Position numbers and translations under genes: made by a program
Shown here: positions 3,718-25,406 of the stretch, piece after piece
Numbering within the stretch: the stretch's first letter is position 1
How the letters are laid out: every line of letters begins with the position of its first letter
Notes under the pieces: model-generated
The model's database searches: none
What the model was told of the DNA's origin: nothing
Seen by the model: only the letters and a program-made list of their open reading frames with translations
From: an uncultured Hormoscilla sp.
Lineage (GTDB): Bacteria > Cyanobacteriota > Cyanobacteriia > Cyanobacteriales > Desertifilaceae
DNA: 64,000 nt
Reading direction: 5' to 3'
NCBI GenBank assembly: GCA_963921275.4
Contig: OZ001293.3
Span: 3,872,001-3,936,000, forward strand

Positions 3718-6700
3718 ATGAGCGACCTACAAAAACGTTTAGAAAAACTTTCTCCAGCTCAACGGGAACTGGTACTCAAAAAGCTGCAAGCACAAAAGCA
3801 AAACTTGAAGCCCCAAGCCAAAGTACCGGCGCGAGCGCCTGTTTCCAGAGACCAACCAATTCCGCTATCCTGGAATCAACAAAGACTGTGGTTTTTAGAG
3901 CAACTCGAAGGTAGCAGTTCTACATACAATATCCCGGCAGCAGTAGAGTTGGTGGGAGACCTCAACCTCACGGCCTTAGAGCAAGGGATCCAAGAAATTG
4001 TCCGACGCCATGAAGTCCTGCGGACAAATTTCACTTCTAAAGACGGACTCCCAGTGCAACAGATCGCCCCAGAGTTAAAGCTACACATAGCAGTTATCGA
4101 CCTCAAGTCAGATACCGAAGGGGATGAGGAAGTAAAGGAAAAAGCGATCGCCGAAGTGCAAAAGCCTTTCGATCTAGCAAAAGATCCCTTACTCCGGGTA
4201 ACTCTATTGCGGCGAGAGCCCTCCTCGCACGTCCTGTTGCTGACCATGCACCATATTATCTCTGATGGCTGGTCGATGGGGATATTAATTACAGAATTGT
4301 CACAGTTGTATCGGGCATTTTCGTTCCAAGCACCATCGCCCTTACCGGAACTACCATTTCAATATGCAGACTTTGCTGTATGGCAGCGGCAATGGTTGAG
4401 CGGAGAAACTTTAGAAACTCAACTAAATTACTGGAAAGAAACCCTCTCGGGGGCCCCGGAACTATTAGAATTACCGACAGACCTATCGCGTCCTCCCCTG
4501 CAGAAATTTCGCGGTAGCAGTATCAAATTTAACCTATCGGCAGAATTAACGAAAAAACTCCAAATTATAGCTGAAAAGTCCGAGGCCACCCTATTTATGA
4601 TTCTCTTCAGTGCTTTGGTGACTTTACTTTATCGCTATACCGCTCAAGAGGATATCTGTATCGGCACCCCGATCGCCAACCGGAACCGCGCCGAAACGGA
4701 ATCGCTAATTGGCTTTTTTATCAACACATTGGTATTGCGCGCGGACTTGACAGGAGATCCGACTTTTTCGGAGTTGATCGCGAGGGTGCGACAAAAGGCG
4801 ATCGATGCATACGATCGCCAGGACGTACCCTTCGAGCAAGTAGTAGAAGCTTTGCAACCCTCACGTTCTCTGAGCTACAGTCCCCTATTCCAGGTAATGT
4901 TTGCCTTGCAGAATGCACCGATGGGAGAATTAGAACTGCCCGGTCTGACTCTCAAACCCTTGGTCCAAGACAGCCTGACAGCCAAATTTGACCTGACAAT
5001 ATCCATGTGGGAAACAGACGCCGGACTGGCAGGATCCTGGGAATATAACAGTGACTTGTTCGATCGAGAGACGAGCGATCGCACCATCGGCCATTTCCAG
5101 ACATTGCTGGCCGGAATAGTAGCTAACCCCGACTGGCCTATAGGAGAATTACCTCTGCTGACTGCTGAGGAAAATCAACTATTCGAGTCGTGGAACAATA
5201 CTAAAACAAACTATCCGGCGGACAAATCTATTGGAGAACTATTTGAAAGGCAAGTCGAAAAGACCCCCGATGCCATAGCAGTAACCTACGGACGGGAACA
5301 ACTCACCTACAAACAGTTAAACTGCCGTGCTAACCAATTGGGACATTACCTGCAAGCTCGGGGTGTGGGCCCAGAAGTGCTAGTGGGTCTCTGCGTCGAT
5401 CGCTCCCTAGATGCGATCGTGGCCATGCTCGGCATTATCAAAGCTGGTGGCGCTTACGTGCCCATCGATCCAGACTATCCTCAAGACCGCATCGCCTATA
5501 TATTGTCAGATGCCCGAGTGCCAGTCTTGATTACTCAGTCTACGAGAAGAGCTAACTTGCCAGAACATCAGGCAGTTCTTGTCTGCTTAGATACAGACTG
5601 GCAAGAAATTAGCACCTGCAGCAGCGACAACATCAAAAGTGAAGTAAAACCCACTTCCTTAGCTTACCTGATCTATACATCTGGTTCTACAGGTAAGCCT
5701 AAAGGTGTAGCAGTGGTCCAGCAAGCCATCAGTCGTCTCGTGTTTGAGACCAACTACGTGCAGTTGCAGCCTACCGTGCCGGAAAAATCGGACTGCATGG
5801 CCCAAGCTTCTAATATCTCTTTTGATGCCGCCACTTTTGAAATTTGGGGAGCCTTGCTGCACGGAGCCAAACTCGTAGGCATTACTAAAGAAGTGCTGCT
5901 TTCACCTGAAGCATTGGCAAACCAGTTGCGCGAGCAAAAGATCGCGATTTTGTTTGTCACTACAGCCCTTTTCAATCAGTTGGTCAGTGTCGTGCCAGAT
6001 ATTTTCCAGCATCTGAGCACTCTCTTGTTCGGAGGTGAAGCGGTTGACCCATCCTGGGTAGCAACAGTCCTGGAAAAAGGACCGCCACGGCGACTGCTGC
6101 ACCTGTACGGACCAACGGAAAGCACGACATTCTCGACCTGGTATCTAGTAGAGTCAGTACCAGCAGGCGCAACCAACCTGCCCATTGGCAGTCCCATATC
6201 TAATACTACTATTTATGTCCTCGATCGCCATCTGCAACCCGTCCCCATTGGAGTCCCAGGAGAATTGTATATTGGCGGGGACGGTTTGGCTCGCGGTTAT
6301 CTGAACCGTCCGGAATTAACAGCCGCAAGATTTATCGATAACCCCTTTGGCAGTGGCCGTCTCTATAAAACAGGAGACTTGGTGCGTTACCTGCCAGATG
6401 GTAATATCGAATTTAAGGGTCGGATCGACAATCAAGTTAAGGTGCGCGGTTTCCGCATCGAACTGGGAGAAATTGAAGCCCTTTTGAGCAAGCACCCGCA
6501 AGTGCGAGAAGCAGTAGTCATAGTCCGGGAAGACCAACCGGGCAACAAGCGTCTGACAGGCTATGTACTCCCTTACTTAGAACCGCCAACTAGCAGTGCT
6601 TTGCGCGGCTTCCTGAAAGAAAGACTGCCCGAATATATGGTGCCAGCAGCTTTTGTGATTATGGAAGCCTTACCCTTAACCCCCAATGGCAAGGTGGAGC

Positions 6701-8463
6701 GCAAGGCGCTTCCAGCACCGGACGGACAAAGGGATGAAGACTCTGGTTTTGTCGCCCCCAGAACTCCTACAGAAGAAACATTGGCAGCTATCTGGAGCGA
6801 GATTTTGAGGGTTGAACGAGTAGGGGTTTGCGACAACTTCTTTGCCTTGGGTGGAGATTCGATCGTTAGCATTCAAATTATCGCTAGGGCCAATCAAGCG
6901 GGTTTGAAGTTGACACCCAAACAGCTATTCCAGTATCAGACGATCGCCGAATTGGCAGCAGTGGCCAGCACGACTGCCGCGAGACAAGCGACACAGGGTT
7001 TGGTGACGGGTTCGGCCCCCCTGACTCCCATTCAACATTGGTTTTTCCAGCAGGATTTACCCGCACCTCATCACTTCAATCAATCAGTCCTGTTGTCGGT
7101 GCCTCCAGACTTGCAGCCGCAGCTTTTAGAACAGGCTGTTCAAAAAATCTTAAGCCATCACGATGCCCTGCGATCGCGATTTATCGCCTCTGACACCGGT
7201 TGGCAGCAAGTTTATGCTACCCCAGACGAACAGATACCTTTCCAAGTCGCGGATCTGTCCGCTATTCCCCTCGCAGAACAGTCAGGACAGATGGAGGCGA
7301 TCGCGAATGAAATTCAAGCGAGTTTGCACCTGTCATCGGGACCGATAATGCGAGTGGTGCTGTTTCAGTTGGGGAGCGATCGGCCTGGTAGAATGCTAAT
7401 AGTCATCCATCACTTAGCAGTTGATGGCGTGTCCTGGCGCATTCTGCTAGAAGACTTGTCAACCGCTTACCAGCAGGAGGCCCTTCCGCCCAAAACTACC
7501 TCTTTCCAAGATTGGGCTAACCTGTTGACTGAATACGCGCGAACCGTTCCGGAAAAATCGGAAACAATCTCCAAAGAGTTAAACTACTGGCTAACCCAGT
7601 CGAGCACCAATATTGATTCGATCCCGGTGGACTATCCCGAGGGCAAGCAGGCCAACAGTTTTGGCTCCAGTCGCACGGTATCGGTATCATTAACGGAGGC
7701 AGAAACTCGGATCTTGCTGCAAGAAGTACCCAAGGCTTATAATACTCAGATTAATGACGTGCTGCTGACGGCATTAGTACTCAGCTTTGCCAAATGTACT
7801 GGCAGTAAATCATTGTTGGTGGACTTAGAAGGCCACGGCAGGGAAGAATTATTTGCCGATAGCGCCAGCGTAGACTTATCCCGGACTGTGGGTTGGTTTA
7901 CAACTTGTTTTCCGGTATCCTTGCAACTGGAGTCCGTTGACGATCTCTCTGATGCACTTAAATCGATCAAAGAGCAGCTGCGGAGCATACCTTCTAAAGG
8001 AATTGGTTATGGCCTCCTGCGCTATCTCAGTTCCGATGCGGCCACCCGCCAGACACTGGCAGATCAAACCCCATCTGAAATTAGTTTTAACTATTTAGGT
8101 CAATTTGCCGCTTCTAATGGGTTGCGATCGGGTACGATGGCATGGGGTATAGTGAGGGAAGCAACCGGCGAAAATCACAGTCCATTAGGTATTCGCGCTC
8201 ATCTACTGGATGTTAACGGATTAGTAGTTGCCGGACGGCTGCAAATGGATTATATTTACAGTGAAAACGTTCATCAACGAACAACTGTCGAACGCCTGGC
8301 TAAAACCTTTATAGAGACCTTAAAGTCCCTGAGCGACCACTGCACAGCACCGGAGGTGGGAGGCGATACCGCTTCAGACTTCTCGGCAGCAAGGTTAAAT
8401 CAACAACAGCTAGACAGTTTCCTGGCCAAAATCAAGAAACCCAAATCTGAGAAGAAAAAATAA
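3718..8463 (+). CDS. Single-module NRPS C(LCL)-A-PCP-E with C-terminal COM-donor tail; A code read by eye DAFFLGLTFK (Ile/aliphatic)
   Basis: HHIISDGWS; YTSGSTGKPKG; YKTGD; GGDSI PCP (typical before E domains); HHLAVDGVSW, EGHGRE, RTVGWFT (E domain); GGDTASDFSAARLNQQQLD tail. Confidence 0.95.
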   Translation: MSDLQKRLEKLSPAQRELVLKKLQAQKQNLKPQAKVPARAPVSRDQPIPLSWNQQRLWFLEQLEGSSSTYNIPAAVELVGDLNLTALEQGIQEIVRRHEVLRTNFTSKDGLPVQQIAPELKLHIAVIDLKSDTEGDEEVKEKAIAEVQKPFDLAKDPLLRVTLLRREPSSHVLLLTMHHIISDGWSMGILITELSQLYRAFSFQAPSPLPELPFQYADFAVWQRQWLSGETLETQLNYWKETLSGAPELLELPTDLSRPPLQKFRGSSIKFNLSAELTKKLQIIAEKSEATLFMILFSALVTLLYRYTAQEDICIGTPIANRNRAETESLIGFFINTLVLRADLTGDPTFSELIARVRQKAIDAYDRQDVPFEQVVEALQPSRSLSYSPLFQVMFALQNAPMGELELPGLTLKPLVQDSLTAKFDLTISMWETDAGLAGSWEYNSDLFDRETSDRTIGHFQTLLAGIVANPDWPIGELPLLTAEENQLFESWNNTKTNYPADKSIGELFERQVEKTPDAIAVTYGREQLTYKQLNCRANQLGHYLQARGVGPEVLVGLCVDRSLDAIVAMLGIIKAGGAYVPIDPDYPQDRIAYILSDARVPVLITQSTRRANLPEHQAVLVCLDTDWQEISTCSSDNIKSEVKPTSLAYLIYTSGSTGKPKGVAVVQQAISRLVFETNYVQLQPTVPEKSDCMAQASNISFDAATFEIWGALLHGAKLVGITKEVLLSPEALANQLREQKIAILFVTTALFNQLVSVVPDIFQHLSTLLFGGEAVDPSWVATVLEKGPPRRLLHLYGPTESTTFSTWYLVESVPAGATNLPIGSPISNTTIYVLDRHLQPVPIGVPGELYIGGDGLARGYLNRPELTAARFIDNPFGSGRLYKTGDLVRYLPDGNIEFKGRIDNQVKVRGFRIELGEIEALLSKHPQVREAVVIVREDQPGNKRLTGYVLPYLEPPTSSALRGFLKERLPEYMVPAAFVIMEALPLTPNGKVERKALPAPDGQRDEDSGFVAPRTPTEETLAAIWSEILRVERVGVCDNFFALGGDSIVSIQIIARANQAGLKLTPKQLFQYQTIAELAAVASTTAARQATQGLVTGSAPLTPIQHWFFQQDLPAPHHFNQSVLLSVPPDLQPQLLEQAVQKILSHHDALRSRFIASDTGWQQVYATPDEQIPFQVADLSAIPLAEQSGQMEAIANEIQASLHLSSGPIMRVVLFQLGSDRPGRMLIVIHHLAVDGVSWRILLEDLSTAYQQEALPPKTTSFQDWANLLTEYARTVPEKSETISKELNYWLTQSSTNIDSIPVDYPEGKQANSFGSSRTVSVSLTEAETRILLQEVPKAYNTQINDVLLTALVLSFAKCTGSKSLLVDLEGHGREELFADSASVDLSRTVGWFTTCFPVSLQLESVDDLSDALKSIKEQLRSIPSKGIGYGLLRYLSSDAATRQTLADQTPSEISFNYLGQFAASNGLRSGTMAWGIVREATGENHSPLGIRAHLLDVNGLVVAGRLQMDYIYSENVHQRTTVERLAKTFIETLKSLSDHCTAPEVGGDTASDFSAARLNQQQLDSFLAKIKKPKSEKKK

Positions 8464-8474
8464 CAGACAGGGAC

Positions 8475-8503
8475 TTGACAACGAGCTGAGAGATGGCTAT
8501 CAT
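8475..8503 (+). promoter_or_regulatory. Sigma70-type promoter TTGACA-N17-TATCAT; repeated at 8714 (TATCGT), 8953, 9192, 9431, 9670, 9909, 10148, 10387
   Basis: ttgaca acgagctgagagatggc tatcat: perfect -35, 17-nt spacer, 5/6 match at -10. Confidence 0.75.
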
Positions 8504-8516
8504 ATAGAAGTAGCTT

Positions 8517-10375
8517 GTGAATGAAGGGCGGCTGAACGGCTGGCTAAGACATGAGACCTTAAAGTACCCGATAGACCACTGCGCAGCACCGGAGGTGGGA
8601 GGCGATACCGCTTCAGACTTCTCGGCAGCAAGGTTAAATCAACAACAGCTAGACAGTTTCCTGGCCAAAATCAAGAAACCCAAATCTGAGAAGAAAAAAT
8701 GACAGACAGGGACTTGACAACGAGCTGAGAGATGGCTATCGTAGAGAAGTAGTTTGTGAATGAAGGGCGGCTGAACGGCTGGCTAAGACATGAGACCTTA
8801 AAGTACCCGATAGACCACTGCGCAGCACCGGAGGTGGGAGGCGATACCGCTTCAGACTTCTCGGCAGCAAGGTTAAATCAACAACAGCTAGACAGTTTCC
8901 TGGCCAAAATCAAGAAACCCAAATCTGAGAAGAAAAAATAACAGACAGGGACTTGACAACGAGCTGAGAGATGGCTATCATATAGAAGTAGCTTGTGAAT
9001 GAAGGGCGGCTGAACGGCTGGCTAAGACATGAGACCTTAAAGTACCCGATAGACCACTGCGCAGCACCGGAGGTGGGAGGCGATACCGCTTCAGACTTCT
9101 CGGCAGCAAGGTTAAATCAACAACAGCTAGACAGTTTCCTGGCCAAAATCAAGAAACCCAAATCTGAGAAGAAAAAATGACAGACAGGGACTTGACAACG
9201 AGCTGAGAGATGGCTATCATATAGAAGTAGCTTGTGAATGAAGGGCGGCTGAACGGCTGGCTAAGACATGAGACCTTAAAGTACCCGATAGACCACTGCG
9301 CAGCACCGGAGGTGGGAGGCGATACCGCTTCAGACTTCTCGGCAGCAAGGTTAAATCAACAACAGCTAGACAGTTTCCTGGCCAAAATCAAGAAACCCAA
9401 ATCTGAGAAGAAAAAATGACAGACAGGGACTTGACAACGAGCTGAGAGATGGCTATCATATAGAAGTAGCTTGTGAATGAAGGGCGGCTGAACGGCTGGC
9501 TAAGACATGAGACCTTAAAGTACCCGATAGACCACTGCGCAGCACCGGAGGTGGGAGGCGATACCGCTTCAGACTTCTCGGCAGCAAGGTTAAATCAACA
9601 ACAGCTAGACAGTTTCCTGGCCAAAATCAAGAAACCCAAATCTGAGAAGAAAAAATGACAGACAGGGACTTGACAACGAGCTGAGAGATGGCTATCATAT
9701 AGAAGTAGCTTGTGAATGAAGGGCGGCTGAACGGCTGGCTAAGACATGAGACCTTAAAGTACCCGATAGACCACTGCGCAGCACCGGAGGTGGGAGGCGA
9801 TACCGCTTCAGACTTCTCGGCAGCAAGGTTAAATCAACAACAGCTAGACAGTTTCCTGGCCAAAATCAAGAAACCCAAATCTGAGAAGAAAAAATGACAG
9901 ACAGGGACTTGACAACGAGCTGAGAGATGGCTATCATATAGAAGTAGCTTGTGAATGAAGGGCGGCTGAACGGCTGGCTAAGACATGAGACCTTAAAGTA
10001 CCCGATAGACCACTGCGCAGCACCGGAGGTGGGAGGCGATACCGCTTCAGACTTCTCGGCAGCAAGGTTAAATCAACAACAGCTAGACAGTTTCCTGGCC
10101 AAAATCAAGAAACCCAAATCTGAGAAGAAAAAATGACAGACAGGGACTTGACAACGAGCTGAGAGATGGCTATCATATAGAAGTAGCTTGTGAATGAAGG
10201 GCGGCTGAACGGCTGGCTAAGACATGAGACCTTAAAGTACCCGATAGACCACTGCGCAGCACCGGAGGTGGGAGGCGATACCGCTTCAGACTTCTCGGCA
10301 GCAAGGTTAAATCAACAACAGCTAGACAGTTTCCTGGCCAAAATCAAGAAACCCAAATCTGAGAAGAAAAAATAA
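8517..10375 (+). other. Eight identical 61-aa micro-ORFs ending in the NRPS COM-donor tail (translation uncertain)
   Basis: ORF track; GTG start ~14 nt after the -10 box with no SD; C-terminal ~40 aa match the 3718 NRPS terminus. Confidence 0.4.
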
Positions 10376-10819
10376 CAGACAGGGACTTGACAACGAGCTG
10401 AGAGATGGCTATCATATAGAAGTAGCTTGTGAATGAACGGCGGCTGAACGGCTGGCTAAGACATTCACCAGAGATATTAAAGTCCTCGATCGCTCAGAAA
10501 TGCGGTGACTGTGTCCATTGACAGGAAATGCACCTCATTTTTGCAAAAACACACTTGTTTGAAGGCTGGAACCCTTATTATATTCTTACCTGAGTTGCAG
10601 AAACCCGGTTTCTTATCTGTATGATTAGACAACTACTTTTGACCACACCCTCTTGATAATGACCTTAGAGGTTGCTATCATAGAGAAGTAAAGGCTGAGT
10701 AGGTGAGATGGGAGAAGTGATAACGGTGGGTGGCATAATAACCAGCCATGAATGATGGACAGAGAGACCCATAGAGTAACAGAATAAAGTTGAGAGAATT
10801 GAAAAAGGAGAGTACAATA

Positions 10820-13036
10820 ATGGACAATAAGTGGGAGCAATCGAATAAAGCATACAATATCGGTGACATAGTTGTATTTGAAGGTCGAAGATATAAGTGT
10901 ATCCAGGCTCATACAACTAACGGCGATTATAACTGGAATCCAGCAACTGCTCAAAGTTTGTGGGCACAGTATACGAGGCAATCAACTTCACAGGGGCAAT
11001 TAACTTCACAAGACATAGAAGAATTCAAGAAGAAATTCAACGAACGGAGGCAGTTCTATAAGATCCCAGGAGCAGCATTAGGGATTGTCCAAAATGGTCA
11101 AGCGATCGTGCAAGAAGGATTTGGTAAGCGAAATCTAGAATCTTCTTCAGCTGATGTGACAAAAGAAACGATTTTCGCCATAGGTTCAATGAGCAAGTCA
11201 TTGACAGCTTTGATGATCGGCACCCAAGTAGAGGCTGGTTTATATAATTGGGATACTCAAGTTAGTCAAATTAGTCCAGTGTACAAATTTAATCAATACA
11301 AGGAAATAACGGTAGCTGATTTATTGGGCATGCATTCCGGTCTAGAGGGGGCATTGAATTTTCAATATATCGATCTCGGGAAGAATCTGTTTGGTTATAA
11401 TGCCAGATACTGGAACGAACAAACGCCAATTTATCTGATAGAAAATCTCTCCTATTTGCCAGCTCCAAAAGGCAAAAAAGGGGAATATTTATACAATAAC
11501 GAATTATTTGCAAGCGGGGGTTATCTGACGCCGTTGAAAAACAAAAAGCCCACATCCCAATTATTGCAAGAATATAGGAAATTAATGCAGGATAAAGTAT
11601 TTAAGCCTATTGGTATGACAAGCACCAACATTACGGGGATGTTATCAAGTGTTAGCGATAACTATGCAATCAGCTACGGTCTGGACATGAGTGGGGGGGA
11701 AGCCAAAATTTTTAACAAAGGTGGGATCAGTATTAGCGATATTAATGGCGTGGCCCCAGCCGGTCAGGTGGTTACCAACGTTGAAGATATGAACCGTTAC
11801 CTGATTACCCTTTTGAAAGGCGGATGCAACCCCGAGGGCTCTCAAGTGATTAAGTCTGAAACTTTGCAGAAACTTTGGGATATACAAGGCAAGACCCTTA
11901 AAGACAATAGTAATAAGGAGGGGATTACGGGGAAGACAACCTACGGAATGGGTTGGTGGGTAGAAAAAATTTCCCGGAAATCTAATCCGAACGAAATCGT
12001 CACAGTCAAGCATCATGGCGGTTATTTACCATCTTGGTCCTGCATGCAGATGCTAGTTCCAGAGCAAAATGCTGGCATGGTGATTCTCACCAATAGTTGT
12101 TTTGGTCGGGAGTTTACGATGGAAATGAATCAAGAGCTGCTTAACTTGCTCTATAACTCAGATTTCAACAAAGACATTTTTATTGACAATCAAAAATATC
12201 ATGAAGGATTTCTGACAAAGTTAAAGGAGGCAATAGCCCAAAAAGTGTCAATAGCGGTACAAGACGAAAACAAAGTAGCAGAGGAAAAGAAAAAAGCTGA
12301 GAAGATTATAGGTAATTATGAAGGGGGGTGGAATTTAAATTATGATTCGGTAGATAAATGCTTGGTGCTGTATAAACAAGGCTGGATTGCTCGCTTGGCT
12401 CCTTCTAAAAATCCTGGCGATAAATATGTCTATTACATGGTAGCGTCGAACGATCACAGGGGAATGCACGTCACAAACAAAGAAGATATTTATGGAGCCG
12501 GTAAAATTTGGTTTACAAAAATTAAGGATATGAATAATATCGATCTGATGATGTATGGGGCAAAAGTTGGAGCAATCAAGAAATTGCCAGAGACGTCAAC
12601 AAAGAAGACAATATCTGAAATATTAGAATCGGAATATGACAAAGAGCGGTTTCAGCAGCTCAAAAATATATATTATCAAGAATGCGCAAAAAAACAATTG
12701 AGGGATATTATTGAGTTATTTTCAGATGACAAGAAATTACTGAATTTAAAACAGGAAAAAAAAGATGCGGTGAAAAAGAAGTTGGAGGAGGCGAAAAAAG
12801 AATTAGAGTCGGCCATTGGTAATATCACAGGGTCTTCACCAACAGAAGCAGCAGCAGCAGAGCAGCAGACGAACGAAAAAATCTCGATGATTATTTTAGA
12901 CGACGGTGACACCGAAATCACACCGGTGGAAGAAGTAACAATAATCTTAGATGATATTCCTGATAACAGCGAAAGTGACACCGAAATATCACTGGAAACA
13001 ACAATTGAGTTAATGAGAGAGATGCAAAGGGATTAA
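10820..13036 (+). CDS. Beta-lactamase/PBP-like serine hydrolase with N-terminal CBM5/12 (chitin-binding type) module and a coiled-coil/acidic C-terminal tail
   Basis: AAGGAG RBS; WEQSNKAYNIGDIVVFEGRRYKCIQAHT..WNP..SLW; GSMSK (SxxK), YNN (YxN), HHGG; no signal peptide. Confidence 0.88.
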   Translation: MDNKWEQSNKAYNIGDIVVFEGRRYKCIQAHTTNGDYNWNPATAQSLWAQYTRQSTSQGQLTSQDIEEFKKKFNERRQFYKIPGAALGIVQNGQAIVQEGFGKRNLESSSADVTKETIFAIGSMSKSLTALMIGTQVEAGLYNWDTQVSQISPVYKFNQYKEITVADLLGMHSGLEGALNFQYIDLGKNLFGYNARYWNEQTPIYLIENLSYLPAPKGKKGEYLYNNELFASGGYLTPLKNKKPTSQLLQEYRKLMQDKVFKPIGMTSTNITGMLSSVSDNYAISYGLDMSGGEAKIFNKGGISISDINGVAPAGQVVTNVEDMNRYLITLLKGGCNPEGSQVIKSETLQKLWDIQGKTLKDNSNKEGITGKTTYGMGWWVEKISRKSNPNEIVTVKHHGGYLPSWSCMQMLVPEQNAGMVILTNSCFGREFTMEMNQELLNLLYNSDFNKDIFIDNQKYHEGFLTKLKEAIAQKVSIAVQDENKVAEEKKKAEKIIGNYEGGWNLNYDSVDKCLVLYKQGWIARLAPSKNPGDKYVYYMVASNDHRGMHVTNKEDIYGAGKIWFTKIKDMNNIDLMMYGAKVGAIKKLPETSTKKTISEILESEYDKERFQQLKNIYYQECAKKQLRDIIELFSDDKKLLNLKQEKKDAVKKKLEEAKKELESAIGNITGSSPTEAAAAEQQTNEKISMIILDDGDTEITPVEEVTIILDDIPDNSESDTEISLETTIELMREMQRD

Positions 13037-13247: not shown

Positions 13248-13302
13248 GCAGAAACTGAAGTCATGGCTCTTTGGAATGGTTTGTCTTTACTTTTTTAGTA
13301 TA

Positions 13303-14321
13303 ACCTAAGTTGCGACCTATTAAAAAAAATATGAATTACCCACTTAGACTTTACAGATATTTGGGATATTTCGTAGCTTTTGATACAAAATTATATTTTT
13401 TTTGTGCTAGACGGCGGGTTGGCTGTTTATAGGTTATAATGTACTAAAATAATAGTTAATTGCTGGGGGATGTAGATGATGGAAGATATGATTACAACAA
13501 TTTTTGTTCTTTGTGACGAGCTACTAAAAGCGTTAAATATAAAAGAAGATCCACAAGTAAAAATGAACAATGCCGAAGTGATGACAGTCGGATTAGTTGC
13601 TGCATATTTTTTCGGAGGACACCACGATCGCTCTTGTCAATTTATGGTCGAACACAAGTATATAAAAAATCTGTTAAGTAAAAGTAGGTTCAATCGTCGA
13701 TTACACAATATTGACGAACCAATTTGGATGTTTTTCTTCCAAGTTATAGCGTTATAGCTCAAACATTTAAAGAGCTCAATCCGGGTCAAGAATATATTCT
13801 TGATAGTTTCCGGTGCCAGTATGTGATAATATTAGGATTGATAGATGCCAAATTTATAACAAGGAAGAATATCGAGGGTATATTGCCAGTAAAAAACGTT
13901 ATTTTTATGGATTAAGAGTTCATATGTTGGTAAACAAAAATGGAAAGCCAATAGAATTTTATCTAGATCCTGGTAGTTATAATGATTTTAAAGTTTTACA
14001 ATCTTTTGGCTTTGACTTACCATCAAATTCAATAGTTTATGGAGATAAAGCTTATAATGATTATCAATTAGAGGATTTACTAAAAGAGTCGTCAAGTATA
14101 ATGTTAAAACCTTTGCGAAAAAAGAACTCAAAAAGAAAAGAATATTCTTGTTTTGAATATATACAAAAAGTAACAAGAAAACAAGTTGAAACCTGTTTTA
14201 GTCGAATCACCAATTTGTTTCCCAAGTCAATTCATGCTGTTACATCTAAGGGATTAGAGTTGAAAATAATTCTCTTTATCATAGCTTTTTGTATCCAATT
14301 TTTATAGGTCGCAACTTGAGT
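13303..14321 (+). mobile_element. IS982-family insertion sequence
   Basis: TIRs acctaagttgcgacctat / ataggtcgcaacttgagt; 7-bp target duplication TAGTATA (13296-13302, 14322-14328); AT-rich. Confidence 0.9.
13476..14307 (+). pseudogene. IS982 transposase with two frameshifts
   Basis: Pieces in three frames: LSKSRFNRR / YILDS / PVCDNIRI..GYIASKKRYFYGLRVH..YGDKAY..RKQVETCFS. Confidence 0.88.
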
Positions 14322-14384
14322 TAGTATAGAACCCGAAGAGCTTTTCTGTATGACTGGTGCTAAAAGCTACTTTCCAAACATCCT

Positions 14385-14823
14385 CTCAGAAGAAAAAATA
14401 CCAGACCCCGGACTTGACAACGAGGAATGGAGATGGCTATAGTAGAGAAGAAGCTTGTGAATGTTGGGCAGAGCAACGGCTGGCTAAGGCATTTACCTCC
14501 AGACATTAAAGTCCCCGATCGCTGCGCAGCACCGGAAGTGGGAGGATATCCTGCTTCAGACTTCTCCGCAGCAAGGTGAAATCAACAACAGCTAGACAGT
14601 TTCCGGCAAAAATCAAGAAAGCCAAATCTGAGAAGAAAAAATAACAGACAGGGACTTGACAACGAGCTGAGAGATGGCTATCGTAGAGAAGTAGCTTGTG
14701 AATGAAGGGCGGCTGAAGGGCTGGCTAAGACATTCACCAGAGACCGAGACGTCCCCGATCGCTGCACAGCACCGGAAGTGGGAGGCGATACCGCTTCAGA
14801 CTTCTCCGCAGCAAGGTGAAATC
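14385..14823 (+). repeat. About two diverged copies of the 239-bp unit, each retaining a promoter-like motif (14414 TTGACA-N18-TATAGT; 14656 TTGACA-N17-TATCGT)
   Basis: Shared blocks gacttgacaacgag, gcttgtgaatg, ggctggctaag, gcagcaccggaagtgggagg, gcttcagacttctc; a further remnant cagctagacagttt at ~15052. Confidence 0.9.
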
Positions 14824-14855: not shown

Positions 14856-15044
14856 ATGACAGAAGCAAATGGGAATTCACAACAAGCAGCAGAAAAGGAG
14901 GCTAAAGATGTTAGGAATAGGCGTCCTGCCGATCCCAGAATAATTTCGGTAAAGCGCTCAAATATTCCTAAAATCAGCGAACGGAAGATTAGAGTTTCAA
15001 AGGAAACAATGCGTTACTTAATTCGGAGCCTGCAATTGGATTAA
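14856..15044 (+). CDS. 62-aa basic protein whose C-terminal 25 aa match the hydrolase C-terminal tag
   Basis: GAGGGGG RBS; ends PKISERKIRVSKETMRYLIRSLQLD vs PKASERQIKVSKETTRYLLRNLQLD in 15096-16892, with several synonymous differences. Confidence 0.7.
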   Translation: MTEANGNSQQAAEKEAKDVRNRRPADPRIISVKRSNIPKISERKIRVSKETMRYLIRSLQLD

Positions 15045-15095
15045 ACCATAGCAGCTAGACAGTTTTCAGGGAAAAACAAGAGAGAGGTCACAATC

Positions 15096-16892
15096 ATGAC
15101 AGCAGCAAAAAAAACTTTATCATCACAACAAATCGAAGATTTCAAGAAGAAATTCAACGAACGGAGGCAGTTCTATCAGATCCCAGGAGCAGCATTAGGG
15201 ATTGTGCAAGATGGTCAGGTTACTGTGTCTGAAGGGTTTGGGGTGCGAGACTTGCAGACACAGACTCCCATGACAGCAAAAACGATTTTCAACATAGGTT
15301 CAATGAGTAAGTCATTGACAGCTTTGATGATCGGCACCCAAGTGGATGAGGGTTTATATGCCTGGGATACTCCAGTGAGTGAAATTAGCTCGCAGTACCG
15401 CTTTCCCTCTGTACTCGCTTACGAACCAACGGTGACAGATTTAATGGGAATGGCTTCTGGTATAGATGGTGCGCTCAACCCTTATGCCATAATTCCCGAT
15501 CCCAACGATCCTAGTACTGCGATTATAGGTGCTAATGGAACACTTTGGAATGACCAAACGGCAATCTATACTATCAAAAACATCCAATTTTTGCCATGCG
15601 ATCCAGCCGATAAAGGGAAACATATCTACAACAATGAGTTGTATGCAAGCGCTAGTTATCTGACGCCGTTGAAAGAAAACAGGCCAACATCCCAATTGCT
15701 GCAAGCTTATAAGCAATTAATGCACGAGAAAGTATTTGATACCATTGGCATGGCAGATACCGCAATGTCTGGTACTTTGTCAAGTGTTAGCGACGACTAT
15801 GCCATCAGCTACGGCCTAGACATGAGTGACGGACAAGCAAAAACTTTTGATAAAGGTGCAGTCAGTATTAACTATATCAATGGTGTGGGCCCAGCCGGTC
15901 AGGTGGTTTCCAACGTTGAAGATATGAACCGTTACCTGATCACCATTTTGAATAACGGAGTCAACCCCGATGGCGTCGCAGTGATTAATGCTGACACTCT
16001 ACAGCAACTTTGGAATATAGAAGGCAAGGAAACTAAAACAAATCGTTATGATGCGGGGATTACGGGGACGATAACCTACGGAATGGGTTGGTGGGTAGAA
16101 GACATTCCCCGGAAATCTAATCCGGACGAAATAGTCACAGTCCGGCATCATGGCGGTTTCTTACCATCTTGGGCCTGCATGCAGATGCTAGTTCCAGAGC
16201 AAAATGTGGGCATGGTGATTCTCACCAATGGTTCTTTTGGTCGGGAGTTTACGATGGAAATGAATCAAGAGTTGCTTAACTTGCTCTATGACTCAGATCT
16301 AGACAACTTCATTGACAATGAAGCCCTTTATACTAAGTTTGTGTCGGACTTAGAAACGACAATGCCAGAGAAAGTGTCTTCATATACGGTCGTTTACGAA
16401 GACGTAGAGATGCTCCTCGGTAATTATGAAGGGCTATGGACTTTAGAGGTGGATGGAGATAATCGCTTGGTCTTGTTTAAGAACGGCTGGATTTATCACT
16501 TGTATCCTTCTCGAGAAGATCCCTTATTTATCTATTACATAGGAGCATCGAACAATCACAGGGGCATGAGGGTAAGAGAATCAAGCGATCCCGACATAGA
16601 TCCGCTTGAAGGAGCAAAAATTTGGTTTGTTGAAGACGAGCAAGAGGTCATTAACATGATTGGACCTCAAATTGGAGGGGTCAAGAAATTGCCTAATCTA
16701 TTAGAATCCGATGAGTTAAATAGATTAATCCTCAGTATCTTAGGTGATAAATCCTTTCCCCCCGCTCCCCCCGCCCCCGCTCCCCCCGCTCCCCCCGCTC
16801 CCCGTATGAGAGCTCCTAAAGCCAGCGAACGTCAGATCAAAGTCTCGAAGGAAACGACACGTTACTTACTGCGGAACCTGCAATTGGATTAA
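15096..16892 (+). CDS. Beta-lactamase/PBP-like serine hydrolase with Pro-rich linker and C-terminal tag
   Basis: GSMSK, YNN, HHGG; GNYEG C-terminal beta domain; PPAPPAPAPPAPPAP linker; no signal peptide. Confidence 0.9.
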   Translation: MTAAKKTLSSQQIEDFKKKFNERRQFYQIPGAALGIVQDGQVTVSEGFGVRDLQTQTPMTAKTIFNIGSMSKSLTALMIGTQVDEGLYAWDTPVSEISSQYRFPSVLAYEPTVTDLMGMASGIDGALNPYAIIPDPNDPSTAIIGANGTLWNDQTAIYTIKNIQFLPCDPADKGKHIYNNELYASASYLTPLKENRPTSQLLQAYKQLMHEKVFDTIGMADTAMSGTLSSVSDDYAISYGLDMSDGQAKTFDKGAVSINYINGVGPAGQVVSNVEDMNRYLITILNNGVNPDGVAVINADTLQQLWNIEGKETKTNRYDAGITGTITYGMGWWVEDIPRKSNPDEIVTVRHHGGFLPSWACMQMLVPEQNVGMVILTNGSFGREFTMEMNQELLNLLYDSDLDNFIDNEALYTKFVSDLETTMPEKVSSYTVVYEDVEMLLGNYEGLWTLEVDGDNRLVLFKNGWIYHLYPSREDPLFIYYIGASNNHRGMRVRESSDPDIDPLEGAKIWFVEDEQEVINMIGPQIGGVKKLPNLLESDELNRLILSILGDKSFPPAPPAPAPPAPPAPRMRAPKASERQIKVSKETTRYLLRNLQLD

Positions 16893-17010: not shown

Positions 17011-18195
17011 ATGATACCATTAGAAGATCAGAAGATGCTTTTCATTATACCGACATTGACGATTGGTTTAGTTGTTGTTTCAGCAATAGCGCTGCTATAT
17101 CTTTCTTACCCTTACTTATATATCTCACTATTTTGGTTACTCTATTTGATTTTCTTAACTTTAATCAGTAACAAGTCTTGGAACAAAGCCATATGGTTTA
17201 ATTTAAGTTTTATTATTTTTATATTTGGCTTAATTGAGATTTATTCTACTTTGTCTCTGAACGGCTGGATAGAAGGCTTGAAATTTGAAGGTAGCTATAC
17301 ACGAGATTATTTTACTGCTGACGATATCCTTGGTTATGCACCCAATAAAGCAATAGCCGTAAATTCAAAACTATCTATAAGAGGAAAGCCAATTTATGAT
17401 GTTACTTATACAATAAACGATCGAGGATTGCGGGTTTCTCCACCAGGCGATCGGGATCGATGTATATTATTTTTTGGCGACTCTTTCACCTTTGGGCAGG
17501 GGCTAGAGGACAATGAGACTTTGCCTTATCTTGTCGGTGAATTGTCAAAAGCCCAAGTATATAATTTTGGTTTTCACGGCTATGGGCCACATCAAATGCT
17601 TGCCGCTATAGAACAAGGGATGTTAGACAAAATTGTCGATTGTCAGCCAAGTTTAATTATCTATGAAGCATTTATAGGTGATATTTACAGATCGGCTGGT
17701 CGTGCCCCTTGGGATAGACATGGCCCCAAATATGCGATCGCGGCAAATGGAGGTGTAAAATATCAGGGTCACTTTGACGACAACTTCACTAAGAGTAAAG
17801 CAATAGCATTAATCAAGGAACAAGTAGAAAAGTCTTATTTTTACAAAAAGTTTTTTAAGTATAAAGCTTTAATTGATGAAGAGGATATAAAATTATTTAT
17901 CGAAATTATTAATGCTTCCTATAATCAATTAAGAGAAAAATACCCCAATGCTGATTTTCAGGTATTGTTTTGGGATAATTATCCAGAAAACCAGTTATAT
18001 CAACAAGTGATAGCAGGTTTAAGAGCAAAAAGTTTTCAGCTAGATTTAATTAGTCAAATACTACCAAACTTTTGGGATAATCAATCAAGATACCAGATCC
18101 CTGACGAACAACACCCTAATCCCCTGGCCAATCAATATATTGCAGAATACGTGGTCTCCGAAATTATGAATATGTCAGTAGTCAGTAGTCAGTAG
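17011..18195 (+). CDS. Membrane-bound SGNH/GDSL hydrolase family protein
   Basis: N-terminal TM helices; FFGDSFTFGQG, NFGFHGYG, DEQHPN. Confidence 0.85.
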   Translation: MIPLEDQKMLFIIPTLTIGLVVVSAIALLYLSYPYLYISLFWLLYLIFLTLISNKSWNKAIWFNLSFIIFIFGLIEIYSTLSLNGWIEGLKFEGSYTRDYFTADDILGYAPNKAIAVNSKLSIRGKPIYDVTYTINDRGLRVSPPGDRDRCILFFGDSFTFGQGLEDNETLPYLVGELSKAQVYNFGFHGYGPHQMLAAIEQGMLDKIVDCQPSLIIYEAFIGDIYRSAGRAPWDRHGPKYAIAANGGVKYQGHFDDNFTKSKAIALIKEQVEKSYFYKKFFKYKALIDEEDIKLFIEIINASYNQLREKYPNADFQVLFWDNYPENQLYQQVIAGLRAKSFQLDLISQILPNFWDNQSRYQIPDEQHPNPLANQYIAEYVVSEIMNMSVVSSQ

Positions 18196-18445
18196 TCAGT
18201 TGTGGGTAGTCATTTGTGGGTAGTCAGTTGTGGGTAAGCAGGTGGGTGCAAATAAACTGGCCTCTGTTAAGAAATGTAAAATCTCTGAATCTTTTTCTGG
18301 AAGAGGCTTTCAGCCAAGTAAACAAATATTTACTGCCGTTGAGTTTACTTATGCACACCTACTTAGTCAATTGTGGGTAGTCATTTGTGGGTAGTCAGTT
18401 GTAGGTAGTCAGTTGTGGGTAGTCAGTTGTGGGTAGTCAGTTGTG
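18174..18445 (+). repeat. Short tandem repeat (GTCAGTA / GTAGTCAGTTGTGG-type units)
   Basis: Direct reading; interrupted by the MITE at 18235-18365. Confidence 0.85.
18235..18365. mobile_element. MITE inserted at TA inside the short tandem repeat
   Basis: taagcaggtgggtgcaaataaac ... gtttacttatgcacacctactta; the repeat resumes after it. Confidence 0.7.
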
Positions 18446-18896
18446 AATTTTGAATTTTCAGCGCCATCCCCTTGAGAGGCAATTTTGTCTACGAGCAAAA
18501 ATGCTTATTTACAACCCCTATTCCGCACGACAAGTTGTAACATGCTAAGGAATATGTAATTTATCCTACATTCAGCACGATAAAATGTAAGTGACAAAGT
18601 TGACATGCTTCCATTTAAAGATAATAACCCACATATTACACTACAATTGTCACATAAATAATACGTGATTGTGGGTGGTTTGGCATTCGTAAGACACCAA
18701 GTAATAAGTAAATTATGGGTGGTTTGGCAATTTTAACGTATAAATATTTATACGAAGGTCAGGTTTAGCGTTCGCGGACAGTACCAAGTAGTTGTAATCA
18801 TCGCATTTGAAATATTATAATACGAAGGCGGATAATAATGGTTAATATTTTTTTAAGATCGTGAAGGCTACTTGAGTGATATAATAAGAAAGGAAA

Positions 18897-25000: not shown

Positions 25001-25229
25001 CCTGTTCCAGGTATTCCAGGCCAACATCCAAGCGCGGCTTCACTATCGCCCCCAACCATATGCGGGTCGGATAGTCCTGTTTCTTGCTAGCGAACAAACG
25101 GTGGAGGACGATCGAGGTTGGGACAGTCTGGCAATAGGAGGGATAGAGAAACACTTGATTAATGGAGGACATTACCAGCTGATCGAAAGTCGGATTCTGG
25201 GAGAGAAACTCAAGGTTTATCTAGCCTAA
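19017..25229 (+). CDS. Terminal NRPS/depsipeptide module: C(DCL)-pseudo-Asub-A(alpha-keto acid type)-KR-PCP-TE
   Basis: IEDIYELSPMQQG (DCL/COM-acceptor start), HHLLLDGWS; TSGSTGMPKG, NWLPLDH, WGMAET; ITGGLGGIG and YAAAN (KR); GGHSL; GWSLGG (TE). Confidence 0.92.
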   Translation: MNDIEDIYELSPMQQGILFHSLYEQSDGMYFHMLAWTLEGPLNVDAFKQAWHQVVARHAVLRTSFHWQELEKPLQVVHSTIELPWLNISWQGKTELEEKRSAFIKADRSQGFELDEAPLMRCALIELGSDRYEFVWSLHHLLLDGWSMAIVLKEVFELYEAIAVGKDLYLPPPLPFREYITWLQEQDLSQAKAYWQQTLQGFKMPTVMPGIQGPKNHQTHYQEQHFNLAASTTKALQSLARANGLTLSTILQGAWALLLSCYSGESDVVFGVTVSGRPPSLSRVESMVGVSINTLPMRVQLPDLSFPTAGELWPWLRKLQAQQVEQQQYSFMPLVEIQTLSEVPQGMFESIVIFQNYPIDPVSTRQGDLQIGQIKGTGHTNYPLTVMASPGAELSVRIKYDGTRFHLKTISSIARDLQLVLEAIATNREPQIASLITKLHKLGKPLKLQQLEVALMSAPEVEDCYILERENTIVAYVVLSSALTEPEKLNNHLQAQLYTYQAPDVYVKISALPLTDTGEIDEVALGRIPVLDEELAQRWEKQLQELPEIERVAVVVRPETKSLPPLHLSDLLPQVGWAPPTNGTAHQQAVSGDDITPVPESQVAIAKARSREMAISHGGPLEYRQDWPRTLAELLPVAALKSSQKILYIQRDGTELWQSYGDLLQKAQSINGGLKALGLQPQDKVILQLKHPQDFIPAFWGCILGGFVPVPLGVAPTYSQVNNAVQKLQNAWQMLEKPFVLASAELVQAIASLSELLGLENLQVESCDRLGEYDPEPNYHLSQPEDLAILLLTSGSTGMPKGVMLSHRNILSSVAATSEVSQLTREDISLNWLPLDHPGPLIRCCIRCVFLACQQIHAPTDLVLQDPLIWFDWLERYGVTSTWSPNFAFTLVNDQAAEIKQRRWNLSAVRSLLNTAEPIVPQTAQRFWELFAGHQLAARAMHSSWGMAETASGVTFSDQFLQVNPTQTSFAELGLPIPGVSLRIVNGENEVIECGAIGYLQVKGETVTRGYYHNEELNREVFTTDGWFATGDIGFIQEGRLTITGREKDVIIINGVNYYSHEIEAAIEKLPEIELSYTAAVSVEGDKLAVFFSTPCKDSQLRNKLAEIQQQVVSQIGIKPDYLLPVQKTVIPKTSIGKIQRSQLSQAFAAGEFKEILKQVDILLENANTLPDWFYRQVWQAKQVRRLQELSAGLTLIFVDSLGLGDYIGERLLEEKQEIIKVSVGSEFVQVSADRYRLDPQKAEHYQQLLETIAAAKIYLILHLWNYTEDRGKISSLAELEKAQNTGVYSLLFLVQALAKVQGDRDEVQLLWISSHSQSVEATEEIAWEKSSVMGLLKTVPQEMPMWNCRHVDLAVDLAVEGVEVNGDNILAEMQDPTGEPEVAYRHGQRLVIRLERVKWSGKLGQAIPFQKGGSYLITGGLGGIGVEIAKYLLEHYQARLLLVGRTPLQTEKLAAIEQLQQLGGTVIYETVDICDRPRMSAIISDWGELDGIVHLAGVAHDSLLVEEIHSGFATALQGKVYGTWVLHQLIKDRPDCLFINFSSVNGFFGGTTVGAYAAANSFLDAFSDYQRNHSQLHSYCFAWSMWDETGMSRGYQMKELSHARGYYPIGKQQGIKSFLAGMSWGPTRLAIGLDGSKANIQRYLPACDGLEKLTAYFTGTVPASLPQPPSDRYGTPTPWELTPVPEMPLTDSGEIDLHKLAGKITSLKTGDRVGPRNEIELEIAQIWQEVLAIDHIGIYDNFFQLGGHSLRVLQVIYRLQNFFAVDLPLQSLFNTPTIASLAAAIARQHPQQANSSLVPIQPKGKRSPFFCVHPVGGNVLCYASLARHLGEEQPFYGLQSLGLNGEEEPLTSLEDMATHYIQAIQTMQPSGPYYIGGWSLGGAIAFEMAQQLSASGEEIGLLALLDSYTPQVIARVNDQRKGLLSQMLNVALDDATLASYYFAQDLGSLLGKELQISVEQLQQLDLDAQLTYILEQAKIEKVIPPELGLRQIRRLFQVFQANIQARLHYRPQPYAGRIVLFLASEQTVEDDRGWDSLAIGGIEKHLINGGHYQLIESRILGEKLKVYLA

Positions 25230-25406
25230 GAGGGTGTGGTCAAAAATAGTTGCACATGGGATACCCCCAAACCCCCCCCCTTTGGAAGGGGGGGGTTTGG
25301 GGGGATCCGACGACTGGGAGGGCCCATGTTAGATCGACGGGTTTTGACCACACCCAGCCTAAGATAGAATAAAAATAGACTAAAAATTTGAAAGGAGAGT
25401 AAAAAG

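What the first reader, a model, noticed from the sequence alone, without database searches (positions are those of the whole stretch)
8314..10464. Nine-fold tandem array of near-consensus promoters upstream of the CBM-hydrolase gene
Seen: each 239-bp unit contains TTGACA-17 nt-TATCAT (one has TATCGT), all facing the 10820 gene, with no obvious terminator inside the unit. A few SNPs between units (TAA in units 1, 3, 9; TGA elsewhere) argue against a pure copy artefact. Inference: a copy-number-tunable expression amplifier that can expand or contract by recombination.
Basis: partly seen in the sequence, partly recalled or inferred. Interest (0 to 1): 0.75.

Follow-up and report, generated by a model that had tools for sequence, protein, structure and literature searches.

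The report
Tandem-amplified gene end plus promoter
A cyanobacterium has recently copied, nine times head to tail, a 239-base piece made of the tail of a peptide-synthetase gene plus the promoter-like spacer behind it. This stacks nine look-alike promoters in front of a hydrolase gene, but nothing yet shows that the stack is used or selected.

Summary
In detail: 9.0 copies of a 239-bp unit at 8314-10464. Eight units carry TTGACA-17-TATCAT and unit 2 carries TATCGT. TAA stands in units 1, 3 and 9, and there is no terminator-like site.

Unit positions 1-150 are the last 150 nt, stop included, of the NRPS gene 3718-8463. Only 89 nt are intergenic.

The orthologous gene cluster of another cyanobacterial genome (L014) has this intergenic element once, with weaker hexamers (8 of 12). 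No array turned up in 4 same-genus genomes, 400 same-order genomes or a 400-genome phylum draw.

Edge units are diverged and units 4-8 are identical. This fits an old duplication followed by recent expansion through unequal crossing-over.

Short-read contigs give the unit, and its head-to-tail junction, about 7-14 times the flank depth in three samples. The array is therefore not an assembly artefact.

Near-consensus sites of this kind are about 5-fold enriched in this genome and lie mostly outside long ORFs, so the motifs are probably real promoters. A paralogous promoter already sits at 10653-10681.

Best reading: a lineage-specific segmental amplification that multiplies a promoter by accident. 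A selected, tunable amplifier stays possible (about 0.2), and no RNA data exist. Interest is moderate.

The parts
3718..8463 (+). NRPS gene (1581 aa; condensation, adenylation, carrier, second condensation-superfamily domain). Its last 150 nt form positions 1-150 of array unit 1.
   Evidence: ORF list. Pfam hits to Condensation (2 stretches), AMP-binding and PP-binding. NCBIfam TIGR01720 at residues 1410-1567.
8314..10464 (+). Tandem array, 9.0 x 239 bp. Each unit = NRPS tail coding (positions 1-147) + stop (148-150) + 11-nt spacer + -35 (162-167) + 17-nt spacer + -10 (185-190) + 49 nt that include a relic of NRPS coding sequence.
8475..8503 (+). Promoter-like site of unit 1 (TTGACA-17-TATCAT). 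The same site recurs every 239 bp: 8714-8742 (TATCGT), 8953-8981, 9192-9220, 9431-9459, 9670-9698, 9909-9937, 10148-10176, 10387-10415.
8517..8702 (+). 61-codon GTG-start ORF that repeats the NRPS tail. Eight such ORFs, one per junction. Judged non-coding.
   Evidence: The frame is not kept in the locus-2 copies (read by eye).
10465..10500 (+). Diverged partial tenth unit, the old edge of the array.
10653..10681 (+). Proximal paralogous promoter-like site: TTGATA-17-TATCAT with TG before the -10. It shares GCTATCATAGAGAAGTA with the units.
10820..13036 (+). Downstream gene: CBM5/12 + beta-lactamase-family (serine hydrolase) protein, 738 aa, with SMSK, YNN and HGG motifs present.
14384..14823 (+). 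Second, degenerate array of about 1.9 units (81-91% identical to the consensus unit). It lies behind an IS element and before the next beta-lactamase-family paralog.
15096..16892 (+). Second beta-lactamase-family paralog, 77.5% DNA identity to gene 10820 over 1221 nt.

Best explanation
The array is a recent, lineage-specific tandem amplification of a 239-bp segment. The segment spans the last 150 nt of an NRPS gene (stop included) and the intergenic element that follows this gene in the ancestral NRPS/beta-lactamase-family operon. Inferred history: an old tandem duplication joined the intergenic element to NRPS coding sequence about 30 nt upstream of the present unit start, perhaps at a short GAACG-type microhomology. 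Much later, unequal crossing-over or replication slippage between the copies expanded and homogenised the array to nine units. The edge units stayed diverged. Every unit carries the gene's own end and stop, so changes in copy number never damage the NRPS gene. As a by-product, the intergenic element's sigma-70-type promoter now stands nine times in the same direction, 0.4-2.3 kb upstream of the hydrolase gene, and that gene also keeps a proximal paralogous promoter. The promoters are probably active. With no terminator-like site and no Rho, their transcripts would run into the hydrolase gene, so expression is probably raised and would vary with copy number. Shown: the anatomy, the single-copy orthologue, multi-copy depth, and the genome-wide behaviour of the motif class. 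Inferred: the order of events, promoter activity, read-through, and any effect on expression. Nothing shows selection for the array.
For: Anatomy: unit positions 1-150 equal the 3' end of ORF 3718-8463. Orthologue: L014 carries the same cluster (NRPS 80-82% DNA identity, then two beta-lactamase-family genes, then the next NRPS at 81.6%) with the element once, between the NRPS stop and the next gene. A more distant relative (L011) has the NRPS stop 9 nt from the ATG of a beta-lactamase-family gene, and the unit's AAAAAATGACAGAC matches that start. Two stages: the last ~35 nt of each unit align to NRPS coding sequence upstream of the unit. Of the 5 differences between unit 1 and units 2-9 in positions 14-31, 3 are derived in the units and 2 in the gene copy, judged against L014. 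Units 4-8 are identical. Reality: unit or junction contigs over flank contigs give 23.8 and 22 over 2.6-2.9 (X1), 597 over 72.8 (X2), 203.7 over 30.2 (X3) and 450.9 over 31.5 (X4). Lineage-specific: 0 of 4 same-genus and 0 of 13 same-family genomes match. 6 of 400 other same-order genomes match, each once and only in coding positions 25-155. The non-coding 120 nt gives only 19-32-nt chance-level hits in 9 of 400 genomes of the phylum draw. Promoter class: 224 sites of at least 11 of 12 with a 17-nt spacer, against 44.5 expected from composition. 43 of 210 non-array sites lie in ORFs of 200 aa or more, which cover 50% of the chromosome. A same-direction ORF start lies within 200 nt for 50 of 210, against 27 of 210 in the reversed control. 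204 of the 210 are distinct. Read-through: 0 terminator-like sites and no Rho RNA-binding domain in a 96.7%-complete genome. Background process: 13 chromosomal arrays with period at least 60, at least 3 copies and at least 97% identity, plus a 3.0 x 2483-bp array 16 kb away.
Against: No RNA run holds the locus, so no promoter is shown to fire. The orthologous element in L014 has poor hexamers (TAGACG/TACGAT, 8 of 12), so the element need not be a promoter by descent. The depth ratios come from k-mer contigs of one study, which is probably the source of the assembly. The tool warns that depth is not copy number, and no contig spans the array. The proposed microhomology is short and the founding junction has since diverged, so the origin is an inference. 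The locus-2 unit is 91.2% identical to the array consensus while the genes behind the two arrays are 77.5% identical. This could mean constraint on the unit, which would favour a function, and not only gene conversion. Of the 13 high-identity arrays only this one carries promoter-like sites, which a purely neutral view does not predict, though it does not forbid it either.
Confidence: 0.55

Rival explanations
1. Selected, copy-number-tunable expression amplifier. The array is kept because more promoter copies give more hydrolase, and recombination lets the population tune the level.
For: Nine co-directional near-consensus promoters with no terminator-like site and no Rho. Synthetic clusters of core promoters raise transcription stepwise up to five copies (PMC3293061, abstract read). 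The same cluster has also amplified the hydrolase genes themselves: a 3.0 x 2483-bp array with 12 mismatches in 4985 compared positions, and at least six beta-lactamase-family ORFs. Depth ratios differ between samples, about 6.7x, 8-9x and 14x. Units at the two loci are more alike (91.2%) than the genes behind them (77.5%). This is the only one of 13 high-identity arrays with promoter-like sites.
Against: 63% of each unit is a passenger gene end. There is no array in any other genome searched, and the orthologue has a single copy. Near-identity of the units means too little time has passed to see selection. The gene already has a proximal promoter. The synthetic series saturated at five copies. 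No expression data exist.
Confidence: 0.2
2. Inert satellite. The hexamers do not work as promoters in this context, and the array is neutral junk DNA inside an operon that is transcribed through from the NRPS promoter.
For: The orthologous element scores only 8 of 12. Relatives have the hydrolase gene directly behind the NRPS gene, which suggests co-transcription. About 45 of 224 sites of this class are expected by chance. Twelve other high-identity arrays in the genome carry no promoter.
Against: The match is 11 of 12 with the optimal 17-nt spacer. The motif class is about 5-fold enriched and lies mostly outside long ORFs. The same element sits in a classical promoter position about 140 nt before the gene start.
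Confidence: 0.15
3. Array of small RNA genes of the NsiR1 type: each unit makes its own short RNA.
For: Each unit has its own promoter-like site. Cyanobacteria are known to carry such an array (PMC4030482, passage read).
Against: 0 terminator-like sites. The unit RNA folds no better than shuffles (z = -1.45; 14 of 200 shuffles fold as well). There is no Rfam match apart from one chance-level hit (E = 0.92) outside the array. The unit is mostly protein-coding sequence by descent, and there is no conservation elsewhere.
Confidence: 0.03
4. Array of small protein genes. The 61-codon ORFs (8517-8702 and seven more) would make free copies of the NRPS C-terminal tail, for example decoys of a docking segment.
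For: Eight intact 61-codon ORFs in frame with the tail. The only polymorphism at the stop codon is stop-to-stop, TAA/TGA.
Against: The start is GTG with no visible Shine-Dalgarno sequence (by eye). There is no Pfam hit. The frame is broken in the locus-2 copies (by eye). The ORF exists only because of the junction.
Confidence: 0.03
5. Assembly artefact: one or two true units inflated by the assembler.
For: Units 4-8 are identical. No contig spans the array.
Against: The unit and its head-to-tail junction have about 7-14 times the flank depth in 4 runs from 3 samples. Unit-specific SNPs exist.
Confidence: 0.03

Closest known systems
Tandem duplication followed by unequal-crossover amplification (gene duplication-amplification; microhomology-mediated tandem duplication)
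   Same: Head-to-tail direct repeats. The founding junction joins sequences that are not adjacent in the single-copy relative. Central units are identical and edge units diverged. The state is single-copy in the orthologous cluster. Depth ratios differ between samples.
   Different: What is amplified is not a gene but a gene's 3' end plus a promoter-like spacer. The microhomology at the founding junction can only be guessed. The two papers on microhomology-mediated tandem duplication (PMC13167724; bioRxiv 10.64898/2026.02.28.708716) were seen only as search listing and abstract start. The general model is from my own knowledge.
NsiR1 tandem array of heterocystous cyanobacteria
   Same: A cyanobacterial tandem array in which every repeat bears its own promoter (12 copies in Anabaena PCC 7120; PMC4030482, passage read).
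   Different: NsiR1 units each make a 60-nt RNA and are conserved across heterocystous genomes. Here there is no terminator, no significant fold, no conservation, and the unit is a gene fragment.
Synthetic tandem repetitive promoter clusters (MCPtac) in E. coli
   Same: Several identical core promoters in tandem facing one gene. Output rose stepwise with copy number (PMC3293061, abstract read).
   Different: Those were engineered, closely spaced, and saturated at five copies. Here the array is natural, the spacing is 239 bp, there are nine copies, and the effect is unmeasured.
Promoter tandem repeats TR34/TR46 of Aspergillus fumigatus cyp51A (recalled, from no call)
   Same: A natural tandem duplication of a promoter segment that raises expression of the gene behind it, with alleles of different repeat number.
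   Different: It is eukaryotic, the duplicated piece is a transcription-factor binding region of 34-46 bp, and there are 2-4 copies.

Membership tests
Tandem segmental amplification by unequal crossing-over | Head-to-tail direct repeats of one unit without spacers | tested here: met
   9.0 copies, period 239, 0% indels.
Tandem segmental amplification by unequal crossing-over | Single-copy state at the orthologous position in a relative | tested here: met
   L014 has the NRPS tail and the element once, in a syntenic cluster.
Tandem segmental amplification by unequal crossing-over | Homogenised centre with diverged edge units | tested here: met
   Units 4-8 are identical. Unit 1 has 6 differences, unit 9 has 2, and the partial tenth unit is diverged.
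Tandem segmental amplification by unequal crossing-over | Copy number varies between isolates or samples | tested here: inconclusive
   Depth ratios are about 8-9x (X1, X2; one sample), 6.7x (X3) and 14x (X4). They come from k-mer contigs of one study, and the tool warns that depth is not copy number.
Microhomology-mediated tandem duplication (origin) | Short identical stretch at both breakpoints of the founding duplication | tested here: inconclusive
   GAACGG lies in the element (L014 and the units) and GAACGC in the NRPS gene near the junction. The junction is old and diverged.
Sigma-70 (group 1) type promoter | -35 and -10 hexamers close to TTGACA/TATAAT at 16-18 nt spacing | tested here: met
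   11 of 12 with a 17-nt spacer in 8 units, 10 of 12 in unit 2. The class is about 5-fold enriched genome-wide.
Sigma-70 (group 1) type promoter | Mapped transcription start behind the -10 | not testable with these tools
   No RNA run holds the stretch.
NsiR1-type tandem small-RNA array | Each unit ends in an intrinsic terminator and yields a short RNA | tested here: not met
   0 terminator-like sites in 8000-11000. Fold z = -1.45.
NsiR1-type tandem small-RNA array | Array conserved across related genomes | tested here: not met
   0 of 13 same-family genomes match. None of 400 other same-order genomes has more than one match, and those matches cover the coding part only.
Tandem promoter cluster acting as expression amplifier | Co-directional promoters with no terminator between them and the gene | tested here: met
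   No Rho.
Tandem promoter cluster acting as expression amplifier | Output rises with the number of promoter copies | not testable with these tools
   Needs reporter fusions or RNA from clones with different copy numbers.

The most novel reading that the evidence does not exclude
A natural, recombination-tunable promoter stack. In a cyanobacterial peptide gene cluster that is also amplifying its hydrolase genes, a promoter-bearing 239-bp unit expands and contracts (about 7 to about 14 copies between samples) and so sets the dose of a cluster-linked serine hydrolase. This would be a promoter-level counterpart of gene amplification, made harmless to the upstream NRPS gene because every unit carries that gene's own end and stop.
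Probability: 0.2. Interest if true: 0.65.

Novelty: new member of a known kind. Interest (0 to 1): 0.4.

Why it matters
If the stacked promoters fire, this is a rare natural case of expression raised by amplifying a promoter instead of the gene, in a form that recombination can dial up or down. It could be tested directly with 1-9-unit reporter fusions. Function aside, the locus is a clean worked example of how a tandem array is born from a gene end plus spacer and then homogenised: the single-copy ancestor-like state survives in another genome. It also warns annotators that promoter arrays read from sequence may be duplicated gene ends.

Tried and rejected
RNA evidence: no RNA holder was listed for 6500-12500, so nothing can be said on expression.

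Rfam at E <= 1 over 7500-11500 gave only one chance-level hit (E = 0.92), outside the array.

Two pattern scans of metagenome contigs, one for the conserved core of the element and one for the tail/start junction, gave 0 matches each.

Earlier notes of this scan: nothing near this place, nothing by sequence, and nothing relevant by words.

A genome-wide dispersed element is ruled out. The 17-nt core with up to 2 mismatches occurs 17 times in the genome: 12 at this locus (9 array units, the proximal site and 2 at locus 2), all but one exact, and 5 elsewhere with 1-2 mismatches. The 49-nt promoter block occurs only in the array and at locus 2.

Silent cassettes for swapping the NRPS tail are ruled out, because units 2-9 all encode the same tail.

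The small-RNA, small-protein and assembly-artefact readings are treated under the rivals.

Literature searches for natural bacterial promoter amplification gave no bacterial case. These were two searches of the held library only, so this is not proof that none is in print.

No supplementary files were consulted.
Full report
OBSERVATION. Tandem Repeats Finder reports a single array at 8314-10464: period 239, 9.0 copies, 99% matches, no indels. I cut the nine units and compared each with the consensus.
- Units 4-8 are identical.
- Unit 1 differs at 6 positions (14, 17, 20, 21, 31, 149).
- Unit 2 differs at 3 (189, 192, 201).
- Unit 3 differs at 1 (149).
- Unit 9 differs at 2 (149, 213).

Position 149 gives TAA in units 1, 3 and 9 and TGA in the rest. 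The consensus scan finds TTGACA-17-TATCAT in eight units and TTGACA-17-TATCGT in unit 2, all on the + strand. It finds 16 promoter-like sites in 8000-11000 against 3.2 +/- 1.9 in shuffles. It finds no terminator-like site, where shuffles give 3.0 +/- 2.0.

WHAT THE UNIT IS. The array does not begin in intergenic DNA. ORF 3718-8463 is an NRPS module with condensation, adenylation, carrier and a second condensation-superfamily domain (Pfam; TIGR01720 at residues 1410-1567). That this last domain is of the epimerisation type is my recollection.

The gene's last 150 nt, stop included, are positions 1-150 of unit 1, and every later unit repeats them. The TAA/TGA polymorphism is the NRPS stop codon itself.

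Only 89 nt per unit are non-coding:
- an 11-nt spacer;
- the -35 at unit positions 162-167;
- a 17-nt spacer;
- the -10 at positions 185-190;
- 49 further nt, the last ~35 of which align to NRPS coding sequence lying just upstream of the unit start (QRTTVERLAKT).

Each junction therefore creates a 61-codon GTG-start ORF that repeats the NRPS tail (8517-8702 and seven more).

SURROUNDINGS. The genome is a cyanobacterium. It has 16 phycobilisome-family matches, and GCGATCGC occurs 4738 times against about 106 expected.

The window is an NRPS cluster containing a carrier domain, a carbamoyltransferase, this NRPS and a second NRPS with KR and TE at 19017-25229. It also holds at least six beta-lactamase-family ORFs: 10820, 15096, a split pair at 25407/25998, and three at 26996, 29479 and 31962.

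The gene behind the array (10820-13036) carries a CBM5/12 module and a beta-lactamase-fold domain with SMSK, YNN and HGG motifs. It scores far below the cut-offs of true class C beta-lactamases. Its closest solved relatives are distant PBP-like proteins (E about 1e-10).

Between array and gene lie 355 nt. They include a paralogous promoter-like site at 10653-10681 (TTGATA-17-TATCAT, with TG before the -10) that shares GCTATCATAGAGAAGTA with the units.

A second, degenerate array of about 1.9 units (81-91% identity) lies at 14384-14823. It sits behind an IS element and before the next paralog. The element occurs nowhere else in the genome.

RELATIVES. The orthologous cluster in another cyanobacterial genome (L014) matches as follows:
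- NRPS gene: 80-82% DNA identity.
- Two hydrolase genes: 71-77%.
- Next NRPS: 81.6%.

There the element stands once, between the NRPS stop and the next gene. It aligns without gaps to the unit's promoter block, but its hexamers are TAGACG and TACGAT, 8 of 12.

A more distant relative (L011) has the simplest layout. The NRPS stop lies 9 nt before the ATG of a beta-lactamase-family gene, and the unit's AAAAAATGACAGAC is homologous to that start.

The array itself was not found elsewhere:
- 0 of 4 same-genus and 0 of 13 same-family genomes match.
- 6 of 400 other same-order genomes match, each once and only over coding positions 25-155.
- The 120 non-coding nt give only 19-32-nt hits at E 0.0015-0.008 in 9 of 400 genomes drawn from the phylum.
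- Two metagenome pattern scans found nothing.

HISTORY (inferred). The relic of upstream NRPS coding sequence at the end of every unit, and also in the locus-2 copies, shows that the first duplication was old. Of the five differences between unit 1 and units 2-9 in positions 14-31, three are derived in the units and two in the gene copy, judged against L014. Both lineages therefore had time to change.

The near-identity of units 2-9 and the diverged edges (unit 1, unit 9, the partial tenth unit at 10465-10500) are what unequal crossing-over produces. A short GAACG(G/C) shared by the element and the gene near the founding junction fits a microhomology origin, but the junction is too diverged to prove it.

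The locus-2 unit is 91.2% identical to the array consensus, while the genes behind the two arrays are 77.5% identical. This means either gene conversion between the arrays or constraint on the unit. I cannot tell which.

IS THE ARRAY REAL? Four runs from three samples of one study hold the locus. They are probably the source of the assembly, so they are not independent. In their k-mer contigs the flanks have depth 2.6-2.9 (X1), 72.8 (X2), 30.2 (X3) and 31.5 (X4).

| Run | Contig | Depth | Ratio to flank |
|---|---|---|---|
| X1 | 181-nt unit-internal | 23.8 | about 8-9x |
| X1 | 118-nt head-to-tail junction | 22 | about 8x |
| X2 | 181-nt unit-internal | 597 | about 8-9x |
| X3 | 118-nt head-to-tail junction | 203.7 | about 6.7x |
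| X4 | 194-nt junction-spanning | 450.9 | about 14x |

The tool warns that contig depth is not copy number, and no contig spans the array. Even so, a one- or two-unit locus is excluded. The spread between samples hints at variable copy number.

ARE THE MOTIFS PROMOTERS? No RNA run exists, so I asked how this class of site behaves in the genome.
- Sites with at least 11 of 12 matches and a 17-nt spacer number 224, against 44.5 expected from base composition; 8 of the 224 are in the array.
- Of the 210 non-array sites on the chromosome, 204 are distinct sequences.
- Only 43 of the 210 lie inside ORFs of 200 aa or more, although such ORFs cover 50% of the chromosome.
- 50 of the 210 have a same-direction ORF start within 200 nt, against 27 of 210 for the reversed control.

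Most such sites in this organism are therefore more than chance, and I put the odds that the unit's site binds polymerase at about 0.6. Against this, the orthologous element is a poor match.

WOULD THEY DRIVE THE GENE? Nothing terminator-like lies between them and 10820. The genome lacks a Rho RNA-binding domain, while the control rings in 9 of 14 known genomes. Long untranslated leaders would therefore not be cut short in that way. The unit RNA has no unusual fold (z = -1.45) and matches no Rfam family.

In E. coli, engineered clusters of core promoters raised transcription stepwise up to five copies (PMC3293061, abstract). A rise is thus plausible, but saturation or occlusion is too, and the gene already has its proximal promoter.

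BACKGROUND. The genome makes such arrays. Thirteen chromosomal arrays have period at least 60, at least 3 copies and at least 97% identity. This one is the largest, and it is the only one with promoter-like sites. Sixteen kb downstream a 2483-bp unit holding a hydrolase paralog stands 3.0 times, with 12 mismatches in 4985 compared positions. The cluster is either recombination-prone or under selection for hydrolase dosage. The data do not separate the two.

COMPARISON AND VERDICT. In kind, this is a tandem segmental amplification. Its oddity is the cargo: a gene end plus a promoter. This makes copy-number change harmless to the NRPS gene and multiplies a promoter.

It works unlike the NsiR1 array (12 promoter-bearing copies of a 60-nt RNA gene; PMC4030482, passage), because it has no terminators, no significant fold and no conservation. 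It resembles synthetic promoter stacks in layout only.

My odds:
- 0.55: recent amplification that incidentally multiplies a probably active promoter.
- 0.2: selected, tunable amplifier.
- 0.15: inert satellite.
- 0.03 each: small-RNA array, small-protein array, assembly artefact.

I rate it a new member of a known kind, with moderate interest.

Noticed in passing
window 26693-34160: A second tandem array: 3.0 copies of a 2483-bp unit with 12 mismatches in 4985 compared positions. Each copy carries a 525-aa beta-lactamase-family gene and a 159-aa ORF, preceded by TTGACA-17-TATAGT (seen by eye at about 28806; this 29-mer occurs 3 times in the genome).
   Followed up: partly
window 10820-33539: Expansion of beta-lactamase-family paralogs inside an NRPS cluster: 10820, 15096, the split pair 25407/25998, and 26996, 29479, 31962. 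The orthologous cluster in L014 has two. Their role is open: D-peptidase, off-loading or self-protection are guesses from recall.
   Followed up: partly
window 13297-14330: An IS element with about 25-nt terminal inverted repeats and a DDE transposase split into two ORFs (13476-13757, 13813-14307). It is inserted between the first hydrolase gene and the degenerate second array.
   Followed up: partly
window 14856-15096: A 62-aa ORF that joins the start of a hydrolase paralog to the conserved C-terminal end of one (a deletion relic). It is followed by another relic of the NRPS tail directly before the start of gene 15096.
   Followed up: partly
window 10704-10760: The leader of gene 10820 contains a relic of the 3' end of a hydrolase paralog, 72% identical to the sequence before 26996, 29479 and 31962.
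   Followed up: partly
window 10640-10653 and 25230-25350: The motif TTTTGACCACACCC and its inverted copy flank a G/C-run palindrome behind the second NRPS. One copy abuts the proximal promoter. This may be a small mobile element.
   Followed up: no
G000 contigs C3, C4, C5, C7: C3 (31 kb) has 17.6% G+C against 47% for the chromosome. C4 (10 kb) is wholly a 64-bp satellite. C5 and C7 are arrays of a 1378-bp unit (18, 8 and 8 copies).
   Followed up: no
G000:C1:2121603-2121919: A 78-bp unit repeated 4.1 times that looks like the reverse strand of a tRNA gene (by eye).
   Followed up: no
window 18150-18471: Two blocks of a 14-bp repeat (TAGTCAGTTGTGGG) between the GDSL-like gene and the second NRPS.
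   Followed up: no
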